From contig CAYJKP010000002.1 in the NCBI GenBank assembly GCA_964371245.1, positions 46,239 to 100,959 of the forward strand: a stretch of 54,721 bases of DNA, in the 5' to 3' direction. The position numbers and the translations under genes were made by a program. The notes under the pieces are model-generated. The model was not told where the DNA came from. It saw only the letters and a program-made list of their open reading frames with translations, and did not search any database. The number at the start of each line of letters is the position of its first letter. Position 1 is the stretch's first letter. This DNA is from an uncultured Gammaproteobacteria bacterium. Its GTDB lineage: Bacteria > Patescibacteriota > Patescibacteriia > JAHIZJ01. Shown piece after piece: positions 36,286-39,857 of this stretch.

Positions 36286-36723
36286 TCATATTATCTTTCG
36301 TGGAAAGTCATATTTACCGACTTTTAATGAAAGTTCTCCGTCGGAACCCTTTACTGTGTACATTTTTCTTTTTATTCGGGCAACGCTTATCCATTCCACC
36401 GGTTCGCGATGCTCATCTAATATTTGGCATATTTCATTATAATTTAGAACCACAATACCATCATCATCGCAAACTAACAACAAGTAAACTGAGCCAACCT
36501 CTTGTTTTAATTTTATGATTTCCTCTTGATGTCTAATTCTAAATGTAAAACGCCACGGTGAAAGACGTTTGGTTGAATATTTAATATATATTCCAATTCT
36601 CTCATCTAATATATACGAAGCGTTGTCTGGTGATGGATATGGTTTTATGCAATACTGCTTCTGACTATCATGTAGCAGCTTGGAAAATACAACTCCATGA
36701 TAAAACTCAAATTCATTAATCAT
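36286..36723 (-). CDS. Hypothetical protein (145 aa), possible PD-(D/E)xK-like nuclease
   Basis: YILDERIGIYIKYS-type core; overlaps the stop of the Z1 gene by 8 bp; AT-rich. Confidence 0.6.
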   Translation of the reverse strand: MINEFEFYHGVVFSKLLHDSQKQYCIKPYPSPDNASYILDERIGIYIKYSTKRLSPWRFTFRIRHQEEIIKLKQEVGSVYLLLVCDDDGIVVLNYNEICQILDEHREPVEWISVARIKRKMYTVKGSDGELSLKVGKYDFPRKII

Positions 36724-38575
36724 TGCGTTTTGAGGTTCTTAAAAATCTGATATTGCCTCGATATTTATAGAATACGCGTGCCTTACCATTTTCGTTATAG
36801 AGAATATTGATATGATGAATTGCATTAGGATACTTTGATAATTCTAACTCCCTGTCCCCTATGAAACCTTTAGTACGAGTGATAGTAGCTTTATCTATTT
36901 CGCCTTCCTTATCCGCATACCCAGCGATGCTTTTTGGGCCATGTACTGCGATAGACTCATCACCAGCTGGTCTAAAATTATCTATATAGTTAATTAAATA
37001 ATCAGGTAATCGGTTTTTTCCTAATAATTCAGATAGTGCTTTAATTTTTCTCAATGAAGGAATATTTTGATCAAATATATTTTGAATACTGGTGGGGTCA
37101 TAATCAAACAAGTCAAAACTCATTTCTCCTTTATCGACAAGAATATTTGTTTTGTCGATACTCGAACTTGCAGCAGCGGTTATTTTTTCACCATCAAGCC
37201 ATACTGGCGACCTGTTACTCTGCTTCCTCGCTTCGAGAGAGAGCCTGTGGAAAATGAAACAGCGTTGCCAATCAAGGTAAAGAGTTTTGGGGATTACCAA
37301 CTCGAAATATTTTAGATATGGCTTACGAGATCCAAACATACGTGCACGCTGAATGTATGTGTCTTGTTGCATTTTATGTTTAACATCCCTAGTAAAAAAC
37401 ATCGACAGTAAATTATCGAATGTTACGCCCCGTGATACAATATTTCCACCAATTATTATTGTATATGGAGCGGAGGGATTTGTTGCGGTTCTGTTATCTG
37501 CAGCATTTACTTCTTTATCACTATTCATTACAACAACGTTGTTTCTATCGCAATTTGAAATAATATATTTAACAATTTCGGAAGATTTTTCCGGAAACAT
37601 TAAATTCGCCATTTCCCAGATGGTACGATAATATGATTTATAATGACTATTTTTCTCATCACGCAGTATCTCAAATATTTTAATAACTTGTTTGTAATCA
37701 ACTATGTGATCATTTTTTCTCCCACTAGTATGTATTAACATTGAGTAGTTTTCTTCTGGATCGTTAACTACTGTATTTAAGTATGATGCACGAATTAAAA
37801 AACTAAACAAAGCCTCGCGCAGATACTTGGGCATATCTCCGGTGTCTGCAAGAAAGGTTAGGTGAAATGTAAGATTTTCTACAAGAACTGGGAAAAATGT
37901 ATCTTGGCCGACATAATAGGAATGTGGCGGAAAATCTATCCAATATTCATTTTGGTTACGGTGTGTTCTATTCAAATCAAGTCTCGCTGGTGTTGCCGTA
38001 ACACCGATATAAATACCTTCATCGCCTATAAGTATTTCAGTTAATTCATTTATCTTACTCTTTTCTTTCTTATTAATTTTCGAGTTTGGAGTAGCATAGT
38101 CGGCCTCGTCATCAATTATTACTCTCCTGCTATGCTCTTCTATTTTGTTTATCAACTTCTGTAAATCCTTAGCATTCTTTTTACAAAAAATAATCCATTG
38201 TCTATCTCCAATATTAATTTCAGGAGGAAGTATTTCGCTAAATTTTTTTGGTGAGGGAGATAAACCTGATCTCTGAAACCGTTCCAAATTTTGGCCAAGT
38301 AACTGAACGCTATCATTTAATAACACGATAACTATTTTATGACCTTCATCGAGTAATTTTCCAGTTAACGCTATCATCATTTCCGTTTTTCCGCTTTGAG
38401 GTTCACCATATATTACAAATGACCTTTGATTCTTTTTTATATTTTCTACAGCAGTTTCAACAACTTGCTTTATGTGGTCAATCTCTTGCCCTTTTGTAAC
38501 GAGCTGAGATAAACGTTTTTCGTAACGGTTCACAACAGCTGTTTCCTTTTTTAGTTCTTCAAGATTGAAGCTCAT
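36716..38575 (-). CDS. SF2 helicase/ATPase with a Z1 domain (619 aa)
   Basis: Walker A GEPQSGKT, Walker B IIDDEAD, motif III TATP; Z1-like SMLIHTS...IIIGGNIVSRGVTFDNL...DTYIQRARMFG. Confidence 0.85.
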   Translation of the reverse strand: MSFNLEELKKETAVVNRYEKRLSQLVTKGQEIDHIKQVVETAVENIKKNQRSFVIYGEPQSGKTEMMIALTGKLLDEGHKIVIVLLNDSVQLLGQNLERFQRSGLSPSPKKFSEILPPEINIGDRQWIIFCKKNAKDLQKLINKIEEHSRRVIIDDEADYATPNSKINKKEKSKINELTEILIGDEGIYIGVTATPARLDLNRTHRNQNEYWIDFPPHSYYVGQDTFFPVLVENLTFHLTFLADTGDMPKYLREALFSFLIRASYLNTVVNDPEENYSMLIHTSGRKNDHIVDYKQVIKIFEILRDEKNSHYKSYYRTIWEMANLMFPEKSSEIVKYIISNCDRNNVVVMNSDKEVNAADNRTATNPSAPYTIIIGGNIVSRGVTFDNLLSMFFTRDVKHKMQQDTYIQRARMFGSRKPYLKYFELVIPKTLYLDWQRCFIFHRLSLEARKQSNRSPVWLDGEKITAAASSSIDKTNILVDKGEMSFDLFDYDPTSIQNIFDQNIPSLRKIKALSELLGKNRLPDYLINYIDNFRPAGDESIAVHGPKSIAGYADKEGEIDKATITRTKGFIGDRELELSKYPNAIHHINILYNENGKARVFYKYRGNIRFLRTSKRND

Positions 38576-38579
38576 ATAC

Positions 38580-39857
38580 TTATTTTTGAGTAATTAATAC
38601 ATATTCGTATTGATATACCCTTCTTTTATTTTTGTTTTTCAAACCCGTAAAACGTCCAGTATTGTTATCACGCCATGGAGTGATTATGTTATTTGATATT
38701 TCACGTTTAATCAACTTATTATGTTTAAATCCCGCTTCAAGTAACTGCTGATATGCTACTTGTGCATTGAGAATATCAACGTTTAATAATTTGGTATTTC
38801 CAAGTATAAGACACGCATAGCCTTTTGGTTTTAGGACCCTGTACATTTCTTTTATCGCTATCTGCATATCATAGAAGTAATTACCAACGTGTCTTGATAA
38901 TGCTTTATCTCGTTTCTCCAATTTACTAATTATAAAATCAGCTAAACTATTTTCCGTACTCTTATAACGTGGCACAGACGTTGTTCCTATGAATCTTTTT
39001 CTAAACTCAGATAAATCGTCTGTAAACTTAAACCAATATAAGCTTAGTTGATGCAAATCCGCATATTCATATGATGTTACATAGGGTGGAGAGGTAACCA
39101 CTAAATCAATAGAATTATTTATTAGCGGAAGGTTCCTGGCATCCGCTACTTCCATTCGAGTCTTAACTCTCAGGTTACCACTATTTTTAAGAACCTTGTA
39201 ATATTGGCTGTTCATTCTAACCATTGAGTTGATATGTTTTTTGAATATTATTAACGGATCAGGAATTATTTTATTTTTATCTCTAGTCGGCTTGATGCTT
39301 GACATCAGCCATACAGAACAATTTTTCAATATATGTGAATATCCACATAGAAAAAATCTTCTAATTTTTATATCTCTAATACGCGAAATAGATGCAAAAA
39401 TATAATTCAATTCACGTATGGTTTTAGGCTGAAACCAATATTTCAATTTTGGATGTAACTTCTGTTTGTAAACTTTTATTTTTCCGATTCGATCTAGGAA
39501 CGCTGGAGTAAATTTGTCTAATTTATTAGGATTGATTGGTTCTACTTTTGCTTTGGCAATTAATCCTGCAACGGGATTAATATCAAACCCAATACTCTGA
39601 AAACCTAATATTTTTGACTCTACCAATGTAGTTCCGCAACCTCCAAAAGGGTCGCAAACAATGTCGTTTTTTTTAGCATAGTCATTAATTAACTTATCAA
39701 CTAGTTGCGGAATAAATTTTGCCGGATATCTATGATAACCGTGAGTTACATATGTAGATTTTTTTCTATCAACAAATCTCGTAAACGACCATCGAGCATC
39801 TGGCCGCAAATAATTAAAACGTTTAATAATTGTGTATTCTTGTTTTACTTGAGACAT
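38580..39857 (-). CDS. Site-specific DNA methyltransferase (N4-cytosine/N6-adenine class, motif order X-I-TRD-IV)
   Basis: THGYHRYPAKF, DPFGGCGTT (motif I), DLVVTSPPY (motif IV), YRVLKPKG. Confidence 0.9.
   Translation of the reverse strand: MSQVKQEYTIIKRFNYLRPDARWSFTRFVDRKKSTYVTHGYHRYPAKFIPQLVDKLINDYAKKNDIVCDPFGGCGTTLVESKILGFQSIGFDINPVAGLIAKAKVEPINPNKLDKFTPAFLDRIGKIKVYKQKLHPKLKYWFQPKTIRELNYIFASISRIRDIKIRRFFLCGYSHILKNCSVWLMSSIKPTRDKNKIIPDPLIIFKKHINSMVRMNSQYYKVLKNSGNLRVKTRMEVADARNLPLINNSIDLVVTSPPYVTSYEYADLHQLSLYWFKFTDDLSEFRKRFIGTTSVPRYKSTENSLADFIISKLEKRDKALSRHVGNYFYDMQIAIKEMYRVLKPKGYACLILGNTKLLNVDILNAQVAYQQLLEAGFKHNKLIKREISNNIITPWRDNNTGRFTGLKNKNKRRVYQYEYVLITQK

What the first reader, a model, noticed from the sequence alone, without database searches (positions are those of the whole stretch)
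36286..39857. AT-rich three-gene methyltransferase / helicase-Z1 / small nuclease-like operon: candidate non-canonical defence system
Seen: an abrupt drop in GC and coupled genes (4-bp gap, 8-bp overlap). Established: Z1 domains occur with SF2 helicases in restriction-like loci such as mzaABCDE, which uses a MutL-like ATPase, DUF4420, AIPR and a C5 methylase, none of which is present here. This locus instead pairs an SPPY amino-methyltransferase and a 145-aa protein with a YIKYS core. It fits no standard type I-IV layout that I recognise. YgjP-like and MazG-like genes flank it.
Basis: partly seen in the sequence, partly recalled or inferred. Interest (0 to 1): 0.74.

Follow-up and report, generated by a model that had tools for sequence, protein, structure and literature searches.

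The report
Motor-driven restriction-modification cassette, unstudied small subunit
This AT-rich island is an intact, horizontally acquired three-gene DNA-defence cassette: a DNA methylase, an ATP-driven motor like that of the CglI/NgoAVII restriction enzymes, and a small nuclease-fold partner. It belongs to a very widespread family whose small subunit has not been studied in the papers I could search.

Summary
Three intact minus-strand genes (425, 619 and 145 aa; 4-bp gap, 8-bp overlap) lie in a roughly 33 % GC island between hairpin terminators.

The 619-aa protein is a DEAD-Z1 motor. It shares 27 % identity (E = 3e-26) with H.NgoAVII and has every DEAD-Z1-specific motif. Its C-terminal domain is unrelated to that of H.CglI/NgoAVII and matches no PDB fold.

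The 145-aa protein replaces the PLD-B3 nuclease subunit of CglI. Its confident model has an Hjc/RecU-like PD-(D/E)XK fold. It keeps the invariant Lys (K48), but the two canonical acidic positions are not conserved.

In 77 related loci from more than ten phyla the motor and small genes are nearly always adjacent and overlapping. About 61 of 71 loci carry an SPPY (m4C-type) amino-methylase beside them.

The methylase falls into three subgroups with unrelated recognition regions. It has been swapped at least ten times on the motor tree. This hints that the methylase, as in Type I/III systems, may supply target recognition.

Verdict: a new variant of a known kind, the CglI-class ATP-dependent R-M systems. 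It is not MZA and not categorically new. Which component cuts DNA and which reads it remain unresolved.

The parts
39949..39968 (-). Hairpin terminator that ends the upstream MazG-like unit and marks the upstream edge of the low-GC island
   Evidence: Terminator scan. It shares the core AGGCGYTC..GARCGCCT with the hairpin at 36184-36204; 0 such matches are expected by chance.
39866..39871 (-). Perfect TATAAT hexamer 8 nt upstream of the methylase ATG. It is a putative promoter -10 and implies a nearly leaderless mRNA.
   Evidence: Read directly from the sequence. Inference only: the consensus scan did not call a full -35/-10 pair here.
38580..39857 (-). M: 425-aa amino-methyltransferase with alpha motif order (motif I DPFGGCG at 69-75, a recognition region of about 180 aa, motif IV SPPY at 256-259). 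Probably an N4-cytosine methylase.
   Evidence: Pfam PF01555 E = 3.4e-21; PADLOC MTase_II PDLC03322 E = 5e-51 over the full length. All 60 intact partner methylases in related loci carry SPPY.
36716..38575 (-). H: 619-aa DEAD-Z1 helicase-like motor. Features: Walker A GEPQSGKT (Q60, K63), DDEAD 155-159, H/H motif H282/H290, motif VI Q409-x-x-R412, and a family-specific C-terminal domain (about 440-619).
   Evidence: Pfam Z1 E = 2.7e-23 and ResIII E = 3.4e-9. PADLOC Helicase_II E = 4.5e-45. BLASTP against H.NgoAVII gives 27 % identity over 427 aa, E = 3e-26. Motif definitions are from PMC5861437. The C-terminal domain model (pLDDT 74.7, core above 85) has no PDB fold match.
36286..36723 (-). 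S: 145-aa partner of the motor with an Hjc/RecU-like PD-(D/E)XK fold. Near-invariant residues are K48, S50, R53, P56, W57, D88, G89, R116 and Y122. It is the candidate nuclease and/or DNA-reading subunit.
   Evidence: AlphaFold2 pLDDT 86.5, pTM 0.85. Foldseek top hits are Hjc, RecU, EndA, Cas4, PvuII and DpnI and viral resolvases. Weak Pfam RecU hits in 6 of 25 homologues. phrog_28860 E = 1.8e-11. Conservation over 190 sequences.
36183..36205 (-). Hairpin terminator with T-run after the small gene. It is the downstream edge of the island and precedes the YgjP-like gene.
   Evidence: Terminator scan: 9 pairs, 7 of them GC. The hairpin core is shared with 39949-39968 and 40460-40479.

Best explanation
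This is a self-contained, horizontally acquired restriction-modification operon of the DEAD-Z1 (CglI/NgoAVII-like) ATP-dependent class. Shown: its three components are a methylase, a DEAD-Z1 motor and a small nuclease-fold protein, and the trio is conserved and mobile. Inferred: the SPPY amino-methylase marks host DNA, probably as N4-methylcytosine. The 619-aa DEAD-Z1 protein is an ATP-driven dsDNA translocase. It forms a complex with the translationally coupled 145-aa Hjc/RecU-fold protein, which takes the place of the PLD-B3 R subunit of CglI. On unmethylated foreign DNA the complex would bind, hydrolyse ATP, translocate and cut. The cut would be made by the small subunit through a non-canonical site (E6, K48, possibly D88), as a dimer or on collision of two complexes. 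Target recognition may come from the small subunit, or it may be borrowed from the methylase as in Type I/III systems. The evidence leans slightly towards the second option.
For: Motor identity: Z1 and ResIII Pfam hits; PADLOC 'Type II helicase domain protein' E = 4.5e-45; direct alignment to H.NgoAVII at E = 3e-26 with QSGKT, DDEAD, TATP, motif V, the QxxR motif VI and the H/H motif all conserved.

Small subunit: a confident model with a PD-(D/E)XK-type fold and weak RecU sequence hits.

Conservation: 77 loci in more than ten phyla. Motor and small gene are adjacent in essentially all of them, with gaps of -17 to +4 bp in 59 of 60. An SPPY methylase is adjacent in about 61 of 71 loci, and SPPY is present in 60 of 60 intact ones.

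R-M behaviour: several pairs without a nearby methylase are decayed, being IS-disrupted, split or truncated. The helicase tree is incongruent with taxonomy. The window's copy lies in a 33 % GC island bracketed by terminators. Large serine recombinases lie near four loci.

Leaning towards methylase-supplied recognition: three methylase subgroups with 17-32 % identity in the recognition region pair with near-identical motors, and at least 10 subgroup switches are needed on the motor tree.
Against: No nuclease active site is demonstrated. In the small protein the canonical Asp position is S or G in most members (D in 28 of 190), and the (D/E) of (D/E)xK is Y, F or H; only K48 is invariant.

The fold match is moderate: Foldseek E is about 1e-2 to 6e-4 and TM 0.4-0.55. 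There is no significant profile hit to PDB sequences.

The motor's C-terminal domain has no known fold, so a hidden catalytic or reading role there cannot be excluded.

No methylome, expression or phage-challenge data exist for any member in the literature I could search.

Full-length two-gene versions without a nearby methylase exist: Nostoc and Calothrix plasmids, L055 and L048. The pair is therefore not always methylase-dependent.
Confidence: 0.72

Rival explanations
1. Type III/Type I-like logic. The methylase is a Mod-like subunit that joins the complex and supplies sequence recognition. The motor plus small protein form a 'split Res' (motor and nuclease on separate chains) with no DNA reader of their own. 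This is a variant of the best explanation and differs from it only in where specificity resides.
For: Methylase subgroups with essentially unrelated recognition regions (17-32 % identity) pair with motors up to 87 % (DEAD), 80 % (Z1) and 74 % (C-terminal) identical. Ten or eleven subgroup switches are needed on the motor and small-protein trees, where the minimum is 2. Methylase identity correlates with motor or small-protein identity at only 0.27-0.47, against 0.71-0.75 between motor and small protein. A 145-aa protein is small to both read and cut DNA. The 4-bp M-H spacing in the window is compatible with co-assembly.
Against: The methylase can lie upstream, downstream or on the opposite strand. 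Methylase subgroups share only about 25 % identity even outside the recognition region, so a conserved docking surface is not evident. The small protein retains a significant residual co-variation with the methylase after controlling for the motor (partial Mantel r = 0.24-0.27, p about 5e-4), which would also fit a small-protein reader. In CglI itself the methylase acts independently (PMC4267653). The three subgroups could share one specificity.
Confidence: 0.35
2. The small protein is a catalytically dead RE-fold module acting as a DNA or modification reader or an adaptor. The system would then protect without its own nuclease. It might block or strip replication and transcription complexes by translocation, or hand DNA to host nucleases. 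Alternatively, the nuclease would be the motor's novel C-terminal domain.
For: The canonical acidic residues are not conserved. The invariant residues are basic or aromatic (K48, R53, W57, R116, Y122), as expected of a nucleic-acid-binding surface. The D88-G89 pair could simply be a beta-turn. The motor's C-terminal domain has conserved His, Asp and Glu (H148 invariant; H4, D35, E45, H106, H149 and N155 at 90 % or more) and an unknown fold.
Against: In the window's protein E6, D33 and K48 occupy three of the four canonical positions. Relocated acidic residues are well known in PD-(D/E)XK enzymes (established knowledge: Cfr10I, NgoMIV, EcoRII). The decay of several methylase-less copies suggests a genuinely toxic activity. 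No nuclease fold was found in the C-terminal domain.
Confidence: 0.25
3. This is not a defence system. It would be a mobile-element recombination or repair module in which a helicase works with an Hjc/RecU-like junction resolvase (compare Hel308-Hjc and RuvAB-RecU), with the methylase an unrelated neighbour. Alternatively, it is a modification-dependent (Type IV) enzyme next to an orphan methylase.
For: The best structural matches of the small protein are Holliday-junction resolvases. Stand-alone homologues occur in phages. Methylase-free pairs exist.
Against: One dedicated SPPY methylase family is adjacent in about 61 of 71 loci, in two conserved gene orders. The motor is homologous to a proven restriction motor. 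The distribution is patchy and horizontally transferred, with decay typical of R-M. The resolvase catalytic residues are missing.
Confidence: 0.06

Closest known systems
CglI / NgoAVII / BceSIV ATP-dependent restriction-modification systems (M + R + H; PMC4267653, PMC5737866, PMC5861437)
   Same: [quoted passage not shown] The motor is homologous (27 % identity, E = 3e-26 to H.NgoAVII) and has the same unusual Q-containing Walker A, DDEAD box, QxxR motif VI and H/H motif.
   Different: R.CglI and R.NgoAVII are PLD nucleases with a B3-like DNA reader (345 aa). Here the partner is an unrelated 145-aa PD-(D/E)XK-fold protein (hhalign probability 0.1 %). The methylase is an SPPY amino-methylase, not a C5 methylase. 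The motor's C-terminal domain is unrelated to that of CglI/NgoAVII. Gene order is M-H-S rather than M-R-H.
Type-3 MORC/paraMORC restriction operons of Iyer, Abhiman & Aravind 2008 (PMC2292703) and the MZA (mzaABCDE) system
   Same: Both have an SF2 helicase with the Z1 signature DThhQXuRhFG (here DTYIQRARMFG) next to an uncharacterised restriction-endonuclease-fold protein and a methylase. Bacteroidota relatives of this cassette carry GHKL ATPases between the methylase and the motor.
   Different: The window has no GHKL/MutL-like, DUF4420 or AIPR gene. MzaC models match only partially and far below cutoff (42 bits against 1500). The 2008 'novel RE' proteins were reported to have E-D-ExK motifs, which this small protein lacks. 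The methylase here is an amino-methylase rather than mostly C5.
Type III restriction-modification (Mod + Res)
   Same: Both combine an SF2 motor with a PD-(D/E)XK-fold module and a methylase. In both, the motor/nuclease part is conserved while methylase recognition regions vary, so the functional logic is similar.
   Different: Res is a single chain with a canonical nuclease motif. Mod is a beta-class DPPY adenine methylase. Here the motor is the DEAD-Z1 type, the nuclease-fold module is a separate chain without the canonical acids, and the methylase has alpha motif order with SPPY.
Archaeal Hjc / bacterial RecU Holliday-junction resolvases
   Same: These are the best structural matches of the 145-aa protein and are of similar size. 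The lysine of the xK motif lies in the equivalent strand.
   Different: Sequence similarity is absent or marginal. The metal-binding Asp and Glu of the resolvases are not conserved. The genomic context is restriction-modification, not recombination.

Membership tests
DEAD-Z1 helicase-like motors (H.CglI / H.NgoAVII type) | Pfam Z1 domain (PF10593) directly after an SF2 N-core carrying Walker A and B | tested here: met
   Z1 E = 2.7e-23 (residues 252-438); ResIII E = 3.4e-9 (residues 36-198).
DEAD-Z1 helicase-like motors (H.CglI / H.NgoAVII type) | Family-specific motifs: Gln in Walker A, DDEAD, QxxR motif VI, H/H motif (PMC5861437) | tested here: met
   GEPQSGKT (Q60, K63), DDEAD 155-159, Q409-R-A-R412, and H282/H290 with the same H-x7-H spacing as H.CglI H282/H290.
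DEAD-Z1 helicase-like motors (H.CglI / H.NgoAVII type) | Detectable sequence homology to a characterised H subunit | tested here: met
   BLASTP against H.NgoAVII (L079:3986-5875): 27 % identity over 427 aa, E = 3e-26. PADLOC Helicase_II E = 4.5e-45.
DEAD-Z1 helicase-like motors (H.CglI / H.NgoAVII type) | C-terminal DNA-binding domain of the H.CglI type (PDB 6F1S) | tested here: not met
   No profile hit to PDB sequences. No Foldseek hit (best E = 0.2). hhalign against H.NgoAVII-C gives probability 0.06 %.
CglI/NgoAVII-type R-M system | R subunit consisting of a PLD nuclease plus a B3-like DNA-binding domain | tested here: not met
   The small protein has no PLD or B3 Pfam hit. hhalign against R.NgoAVII gives probability 0.1 %. 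Its predicted fold is PD-(D/E)XK-like.
CglI/NgoAVII-type R-M system | C5-cytosine methylase partner | tested here: not met
   The window's methylase is PF01555 with SPPY. M.NgoAVII is PF00145.
CglI/NgoAVII-type R-M system | ATP-hydrolysis-dependent site-specific DNA cleavage by an R2H2 complex | not testable with these tools
   Needs biochemistry.
MZA (mzaABCDE) defence system | MzaC equivalog together with a MutL-like GHKL ATPase, DUF4420 and AIPR partners | tested here: not met
   NCBIfam MzaC scores 42 bits against a cutoff of 1500. PADLOC MzaC E = 5.5e-9, partial. No such partners lie among the window's neighbours. The small protein has no PADLOC hit.
Type III R-M | Res with a fused canonical PD-(D/E)XK nuclease, and a beta-class DPPY Mod | tested here: not met
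   The nuclease-fold module is a separate chain without the canonical acids. The methylase has motif I before motif IV and carries SPPY. The 25 PADLOC methylase hits shown, of 66 in total, are all MTase_II.
PD-(D/E)XK nuclease superfamily (small protein) | alpha-beta-beta-beta-alpha-beta core fold | tested here: met
   AF2 pLDDT 86.5. Foldseek hits to Hjc, RecU, EndA, Cas4 and PvuII with probability up to 0.99. Viral resolvases with E down to 6e-4. Pfam RecU weak in 6 of 25 members.
PD-(D/E)XK nuclease superfamily (small protein) | Catalytic E ... D ... (D/E)xK residues | tested here: inconclusive
   K48 is conserved in 189 of 190. E6 is acidic in 77 %. Position 33 is D in only 28 of 190 (S or G is common). 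Position 46 is Y, F or H. D88 (96 %) could be a relocated ligand or a turn residue.
N4/N6 amino-methyltransferases (PF01555) | Motif I FxGxG and motif IV (S/D/N)PP(Y/F) | tested here: met
   DPFGGCG at 69-75 and SPPY at 256-259. PF01555 E = 3.4e-21.
N4/N6 amino-methyltransferases (PF01555) | Product identity (m4C or m6A) and recognition sequence | not testable with these tools
   SPPY is typical of m4C enzymes (established knowledge). This needs a methylome.

The most novel reading that the evidence does not exclude
The M-H-S trio would be a distinct, very widespread type of ATP-dependent restriction-modification system. An exchangeable SPPY (m4C) methylase supplies target recognition, as Mod does in Type III systems. 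A DEAD-Z1 motor translocates. A minimal 145-aa Hjc-like subunit cuts DNA through a relocated, non-canonical active site (E6, K48, D88). That would make it a 'split-Res' architecture with a new nuclease class built on the restriction-endonuclease fold. Phage-borne stand-alone copies that lack R53, D88, R116 and Y122 might then be decoy subunits that poison the host motor.
Probability: 0.25. Interest if true: 0.7.

Novelty: new variant of a known kind. Interest (0 to 1): 0.5.

Why it matters
DEAD-Z1 motors are known experimentally from only one enzyme group (CglI, NgoAVII, BceSIV).

This family pairs the same motor with a completely different, tiny partner and a different methylase chemistry. 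Measured by the small protein alone, the family is large: 802 clusters at 50 % identity reach E <= 1e-3, spread from Patescibacteria to Bradyrhizobium and an archaeon.

PADLOC has no model for the small subunit, so PADLOC-style tools would probably miss or under-call the system.

Working out who reads and who cuts the DNA would show how a DEAD-Z1 translocase is coupled to unrelated effectors. It could also yield a new minimal nuclease or DNA-reader scaffold and a new set of m4C methylases.

For this genome, a small Patescibacteria-like genome, it documents an intact, recently acquired defence island.

Tried and rejected
- Sequence search of the small protein against Pfam, NCBIfam, PADLOC and PDB, singly and as a profile: nothing significant. 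Only weak RecU hits in 6 of 25 homologues and phrog_28860, of unknown function.
- Single-sequence PDB search with the helicase: no hit to H.CglI. Homology was shown instead through the N. gonorrhoeae locus.
- Motor C-terminal domain as hidden nuclease or as the H.CglI C-domain: no Pfam signal, no PDB profile hit, no Foldseek hit, no hhalign match.
- MZA membership: rejected.
- Tree test of whether the small protein tracks the methylase better than the motor does: it does not (11 against 10 changes). Only a modest partial-Mantel signal remains. Mantel tests on related sequences are liberal, so I give this little weight.
- Search for an island-free 'empty site' in the four sediment metagenome runs: no joint found.
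- Literature searches for this exact trio: nothing beyond the CglI papers and Iyer 2008. One search was wasted on the prefix 'mza'.
- Phage-context partner of the stand-alone homologue (a 262-aa ORF in a Ralstonia prophage): no family.

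
Full report
**1. Observation**

- 38580-39857, 425 aa, called M below.
- 36716-38575, 619 aa, called H below.
- 36286-36723, 145 aa, called S below.

There is a 4-bp gap between M and H and an 8-bp overlap between H and S. GC falls to 0.30-0.375 between about 36200 and 40000, against roughly 0.45-0.56 on either side.

G+C-rich hairpin terminators lie just outside the unit, at 39949-39968 (after the MazG-like gene) and at 36183-36205 (after S). A perfect TATAAT sits 8 nt before the M start codon (inference). 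The trio therefore looks like an independent transcription unit.

**2. The parts**

*M, the methylase.*
- It is a PF01555 amino-methyltransferase (E = 3.4e-21).
- Its full length matches PADLOC MTase_II PDLC03322 (E = 5e-51).
- Motif I (DPFGGCG, 69-75) precedes a region of about 180 aa and then motif IV, SPPY (256-259).
- SPPY is the usual motif IV of N4-cytosine methylases. This is established knowledge and was not tested here.

*H, the motor.*
- It has an SF2 N-core (ResIII, E = 3.4e-9) followed by a Z1 domain (E = 2.7e-23) and about 180 further residues.
- PADLOC's best model is 'Type II helicase domain protein' (E = 4.5e-45). I take this to be a REBASE-derived H-subunit class, from its name. 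MzaC matches only partially (5.5e-9; NCBIfam 42 bits against a cutoff of 1500).
- I fetched the NgoAVII locus from an N. gonorrhoeae chromosome record. It holds a C5 methylase, the PLD + B3 R subunit and a Z1-domain H subunit of 629 aa.
- H aligns with H.NgoAVII at 27 % identity over 427 residues, E = 3e-26.
- H carries every feature that Toliusis et al. 2018 (PMC5861437) describe as specific to DEAD-Z1 motors:
  - a glutamine in Walker A (GEPQSGKT; Q60, K63);
  - DDEAD (155-159);
  - the short QxxR motif VI (Q409, R412);
  - the H/H motif (H282, H290), with the same spacing as in H.CglI.
- It also fits Iyer et al.'s Z1 signature DThhQXuRhFG, as DTYIQRARMFG (PMC2292703).
- The C-terminal domain is a different matter:
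  - A profile of 49 homologues finds nothing in PDB sequences.
  - The AlphaFold2 model (pLDDT 74.7, core above 85) has no Foldseek match (best E = 0.2).
  - hhalign against the C-terminus of H.NgoAVII gives probability 0.06 %.
  - No Pfam signal appears in any of the 49 members.

*S, the small protein.*
- S alone has no hit in Pfam, NCBIfam or PADLOC, and none in PDB sequences whether searched alone or as a profile.
- Its AlphaFold2 model is confident (pLDDT 86.5, pTM 0.85).
- The best PDB matches are all PD-(D/E)XK-fold nucleases: Hjc, RecU, tRNA-splicing endonuclease, Cas4, PvuII and DpnI (probability up to 0.99, E about 1e-2, TM 0.4-0.55).
- The viral structure library again returns Hjc/RecU-type resolvases (E down to 6e-4).
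- Six of 25 homologues weakly hit Pfam RecU (best E = 2.8e-4).
- S matches phrog_28860, of unknown function, over its full length.
- I aligned 190 family members and mapped the secondary structure onto the Hjc pattern:
  - The lysine of the xK motif is invariant (K48).
  - The helix-1 acid (E6) is acidic in 77 %.
  - The canonical Asp position (33) is D in only 28 of 190 and is mostly S or G. The window's own protein does have D33.
  - The (D/E) of (D/E)xK is Y, F or H.
  - Other near-invariant residues are S50, R53, P56, W57, D88-G89, R116 and Y122.
- S thus has a restriction-endonuclease-like fold. Its active site is either relocated (E6, K48, possibly D88) or lost.
- I could not obtain model coordinates to measure distances.

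**3. Conservation and context**

The helicase has thousands of homologues, the best at 70-98 % identity. S has hundreds in the word-index search, and 802 clusters at 50 % identity in the exhaustive search.

A scan of one genome per species returned 77 loci. They come from:
- Patescibacteria, Nitrospirota, Alpha- and Gammaproteobacteria, Bacteroidota, Verrucomicrobiota, Acidobacteriota, Planctomycetota, Actinomycetota, Bdellovibrionota and a Pacearchaeote;
- cultured strains, including Flavobacterium silvaticum, Chryseobacterium taihuense, Hufsiella ginkgonis, Legionella saoudiensis and several Bradyrhizobium.

Findings across these loci:
- H and S are adjacent in essentially all of them. The gap is -17 to +4 bp in 59 of the 60 full-length cases where both ORFs were called.
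- A methylase of one single-linkage family lies beside the pair in about 61 of 71 loci.
  - The order is M-H-S in most loci. It is H-S-M in the Bradyrhizobium clade, L001 and L057. The methylase is on the opposite strand in four loci.
  - All 60 intact copies carry SPPY.
- Several pairs without a nearby methylase are decayed: IS insertion in Legionella, and split or truncated H in L034 and L038. L048 and L055 are intact pairs with no methylase found nearby.
- The H tree is incongruent with taxonomy.
- Four loci have a large serine recombinase nearby.

All of this is the behaviour of a mobile restriction-modification system in which restriction without modification is costly.

**4. Who reads the DNA?**

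Pairwise identities of H and S are tightly correlated (Spearman 0.71-0.75). M correlates with either at only 0.27-0.47.

M falls into three subgroups. Their recognition regions share 17-32 % identity between groups. H and S identities are almost the same within and between the methylase groups.

On the H tree the methylase subgroup changes 10 times; on the S tree it changes 11 times. The minimum is 2 and the shuffled mean is 21.9.

The window's own H sits in a 100 %-supported clade with three loci that carry a different methylase subgroup. Identity to L015 is 87 % in DEAD, 80 % in Z1, 74 % in the C-terminal domain, 58 % in S and 26 % in M.

A conserved motor/nuclease module with an exchangeable methylase is the pattern of Type I and III systems, where the methylase supplies recognition. 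It is not what one expects if the restriction side carried its own co-evolving reader, as R.CglI does.

Against this:
- The methylase can sit in any orientation.
- The subgroups share only about 25 % identity overall.
- S keeps a modest residual co-variation with M after controlling for H (partial Mantel r = 0.24-0.27, p about 5e-4). The H C-terminal domain does not (r = 0.04).
- Mantel tests are liberal for related sequences, so I treat that result as a weak hint that S, not H-C, is the component coupled to M.

The question stays open.

**5. Relatives with other architectures**

- Bacteroidota loci, and L001, add GHKL (MORC/paraMORC-like) ATPases. These are proteins of 816-825 aa, or of 739-750 aa with (in some loci) a further unassigned ORF of about 450-470 aa. 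In the Bacteroidota loci they lie between M and H; in L001 the 750-aa GHKL gene follows M, downstream of H and S. This links the trio to the type-3 MORC operons of Iyer et al. 2008, where a Z1 helicase travels with an uncharacterised RE-fold protein. Those proteins were said to have E-D-ExK motifs, which S lacks.
- Nostoc and Calothrix plasmids carry a distant S followed by a 734-aa Z1 protein, with no methylase within 6 kb of the Nostoc pair.
- Stand-alone S homologues occur in Burkholderia phage vB_SBP9 and in P2-like Ralstonia prophages. They keep G10, K48 and W57 but have lost R53, D88, R116 and Y122.

**6. Comparison with known systems**

*What it works like.* The CglI/NgoAVII/BceSIV ATP-dependent enzymes, with the same motor and the same three-gene logic. 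Type III logic may apply to recognition.

*Membership.*
- H is a member of the DEAD-Z1 motor family; every defining feature tested was met except the C-terminal domain.
- The system is not a member of the CglI/NgoAVII family proper. Both the R subunit (PLD-B3) and the C5 methylase are replaced by unrelated proteins, and both points were tested and not met.
- It is not MZA and not Type III.

In the papers I could search, nothing describes this trio experimentally.

Earlier follow-ups in this scan reached the same reading for sister loci in other genomes. I list them but did not use them as evidence. Every claim above rests on calls made here.

**7. Local notes**

- The island is contiguous in four sediment-metagenome runs, and no island-free variant was seen.
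- The genome context is Patescibacteria-like. This comes from scan notes only; the closest H and S homologues include Patescibacteria.

**8. Verdict**

- This is an intact, horizontally acquired R-M cassette of the DEAD-Z1 class with an uncharacterised Hjc/RecU-fold small subunit and an SPPY methylase. It is a new variant of a known kind.
- Confidence that it is a methylation-based restriction system driven by a DEAD-Z1 motor is about 0.72.
- Confidence that S is the nuclease is about 0.5.
- Confidence that the methylase supplies recognition is about 0.35.
- Interest is 0.5. The family is widespread, PADLOC has no model for S, and it is experimentally tractable, but the class is known and the key mechanistic claims are still inference.

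Noticed in passing
window 36184-36204, 39949-39968, 40460-40479: Three similar intergenic hairpins (core CCAGRCGYTC-loop-GARCGCCT plus a T-run) separate GIY-YIG | MazG-like | M-H-S | YgjP-like. They are the only three in the 54.7-kb window (0.04 expected by chance). A RAYT/IS200-like gene lies at 41139-41711, so they may be REP-like elements that double as terminators.
   Followed up: partly
L024:2666-4707 and L053:2613-4843; window 40009-40803: A MazG-like gene followed by a Schlafen-group-3 (DUF2075) helicase lies directly beside the trio in a Flavobacterium and a Saccharibacteria genome. In L024 the helicase has an N-terminal GIY-YIG domain. On the same side, the window has a MazG-like gene plus a stand-alone 105-aa GIY-YIG gene. 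This may be a second defence module or its remnant.
   Followed up: partly
L016:3597-6047, L017, L028, L039, L031, L035:2617-6115, L036, L051, L001:10307-12559: Bacteroidota loci, and one Nitrospirota locus (L001), add GHKL/MORC-like ATPases of about 820 aa, or 739-750 aa. In some loci an unassigned ORF of about 450-470 aa follows. In the Bacteroidota loci they lie between the methylase and the motor; in L001 the GHKL gene follows the methylase, downstream of the motor and small gene. They look like intermediates between the minimal trio and MORC/MZA-type operons.
   Followed up: partly
L080:208-648 (Burkholderia phage vB_SBP9); L081:5995-6432 (Ralstonia P2-like prophage): Stand-alone phage homologues of the small protein (phrog_28860) occur with no Z1 helicase nearby. 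They keep G10, K48 and W57 but lack R53, D88, R116 and Y122. They might be decoy or anti-restriction subunits, or they might have another function.
   Followed up: partly
L078:6001-8677 (Nostoc sp. C057 plasmid); Calothrix plasmid AP018212: A distant version of the pair in reversed order: the small protein, then a 734-aa Z1 protein, overlapping. No methylase lies within 6 kb of the Nostoc pair, which is on a mobilisable plasmid beside ParA and VapC genes. The flanks of the Calothrix pair were not examined.
   Followed up: partly
L049:4916-8004 (Legionella saoudiensis); also L027, L038, L070, L074: The motor gene is interrupted by an IS (rve integrase) in Legionella saoudiensis and is split or truncated in several other genomes. 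This is decay typical of R-M systems.
   Followed up: partly
window 35471-35500: All four metagenome runs show an assembly fork here. The alternative upstream sequence begins TTCGTTAATAATG.... This indicates strain-level variation just upstream of the YgjP-like gene, outside the island.
   Followed up: no
window 38359: One contig in run X3 diverges from the window inside the helicase gene. It is probably a related helicase from another organism in the same sediment.
   Followed up: no
L012, L019, L034, L041: Large serine recombinases (464-531 aa) lie within a few kb of the trio in four unrelated genomes, which suggests carriage on integrative elements.
   Followed up: no
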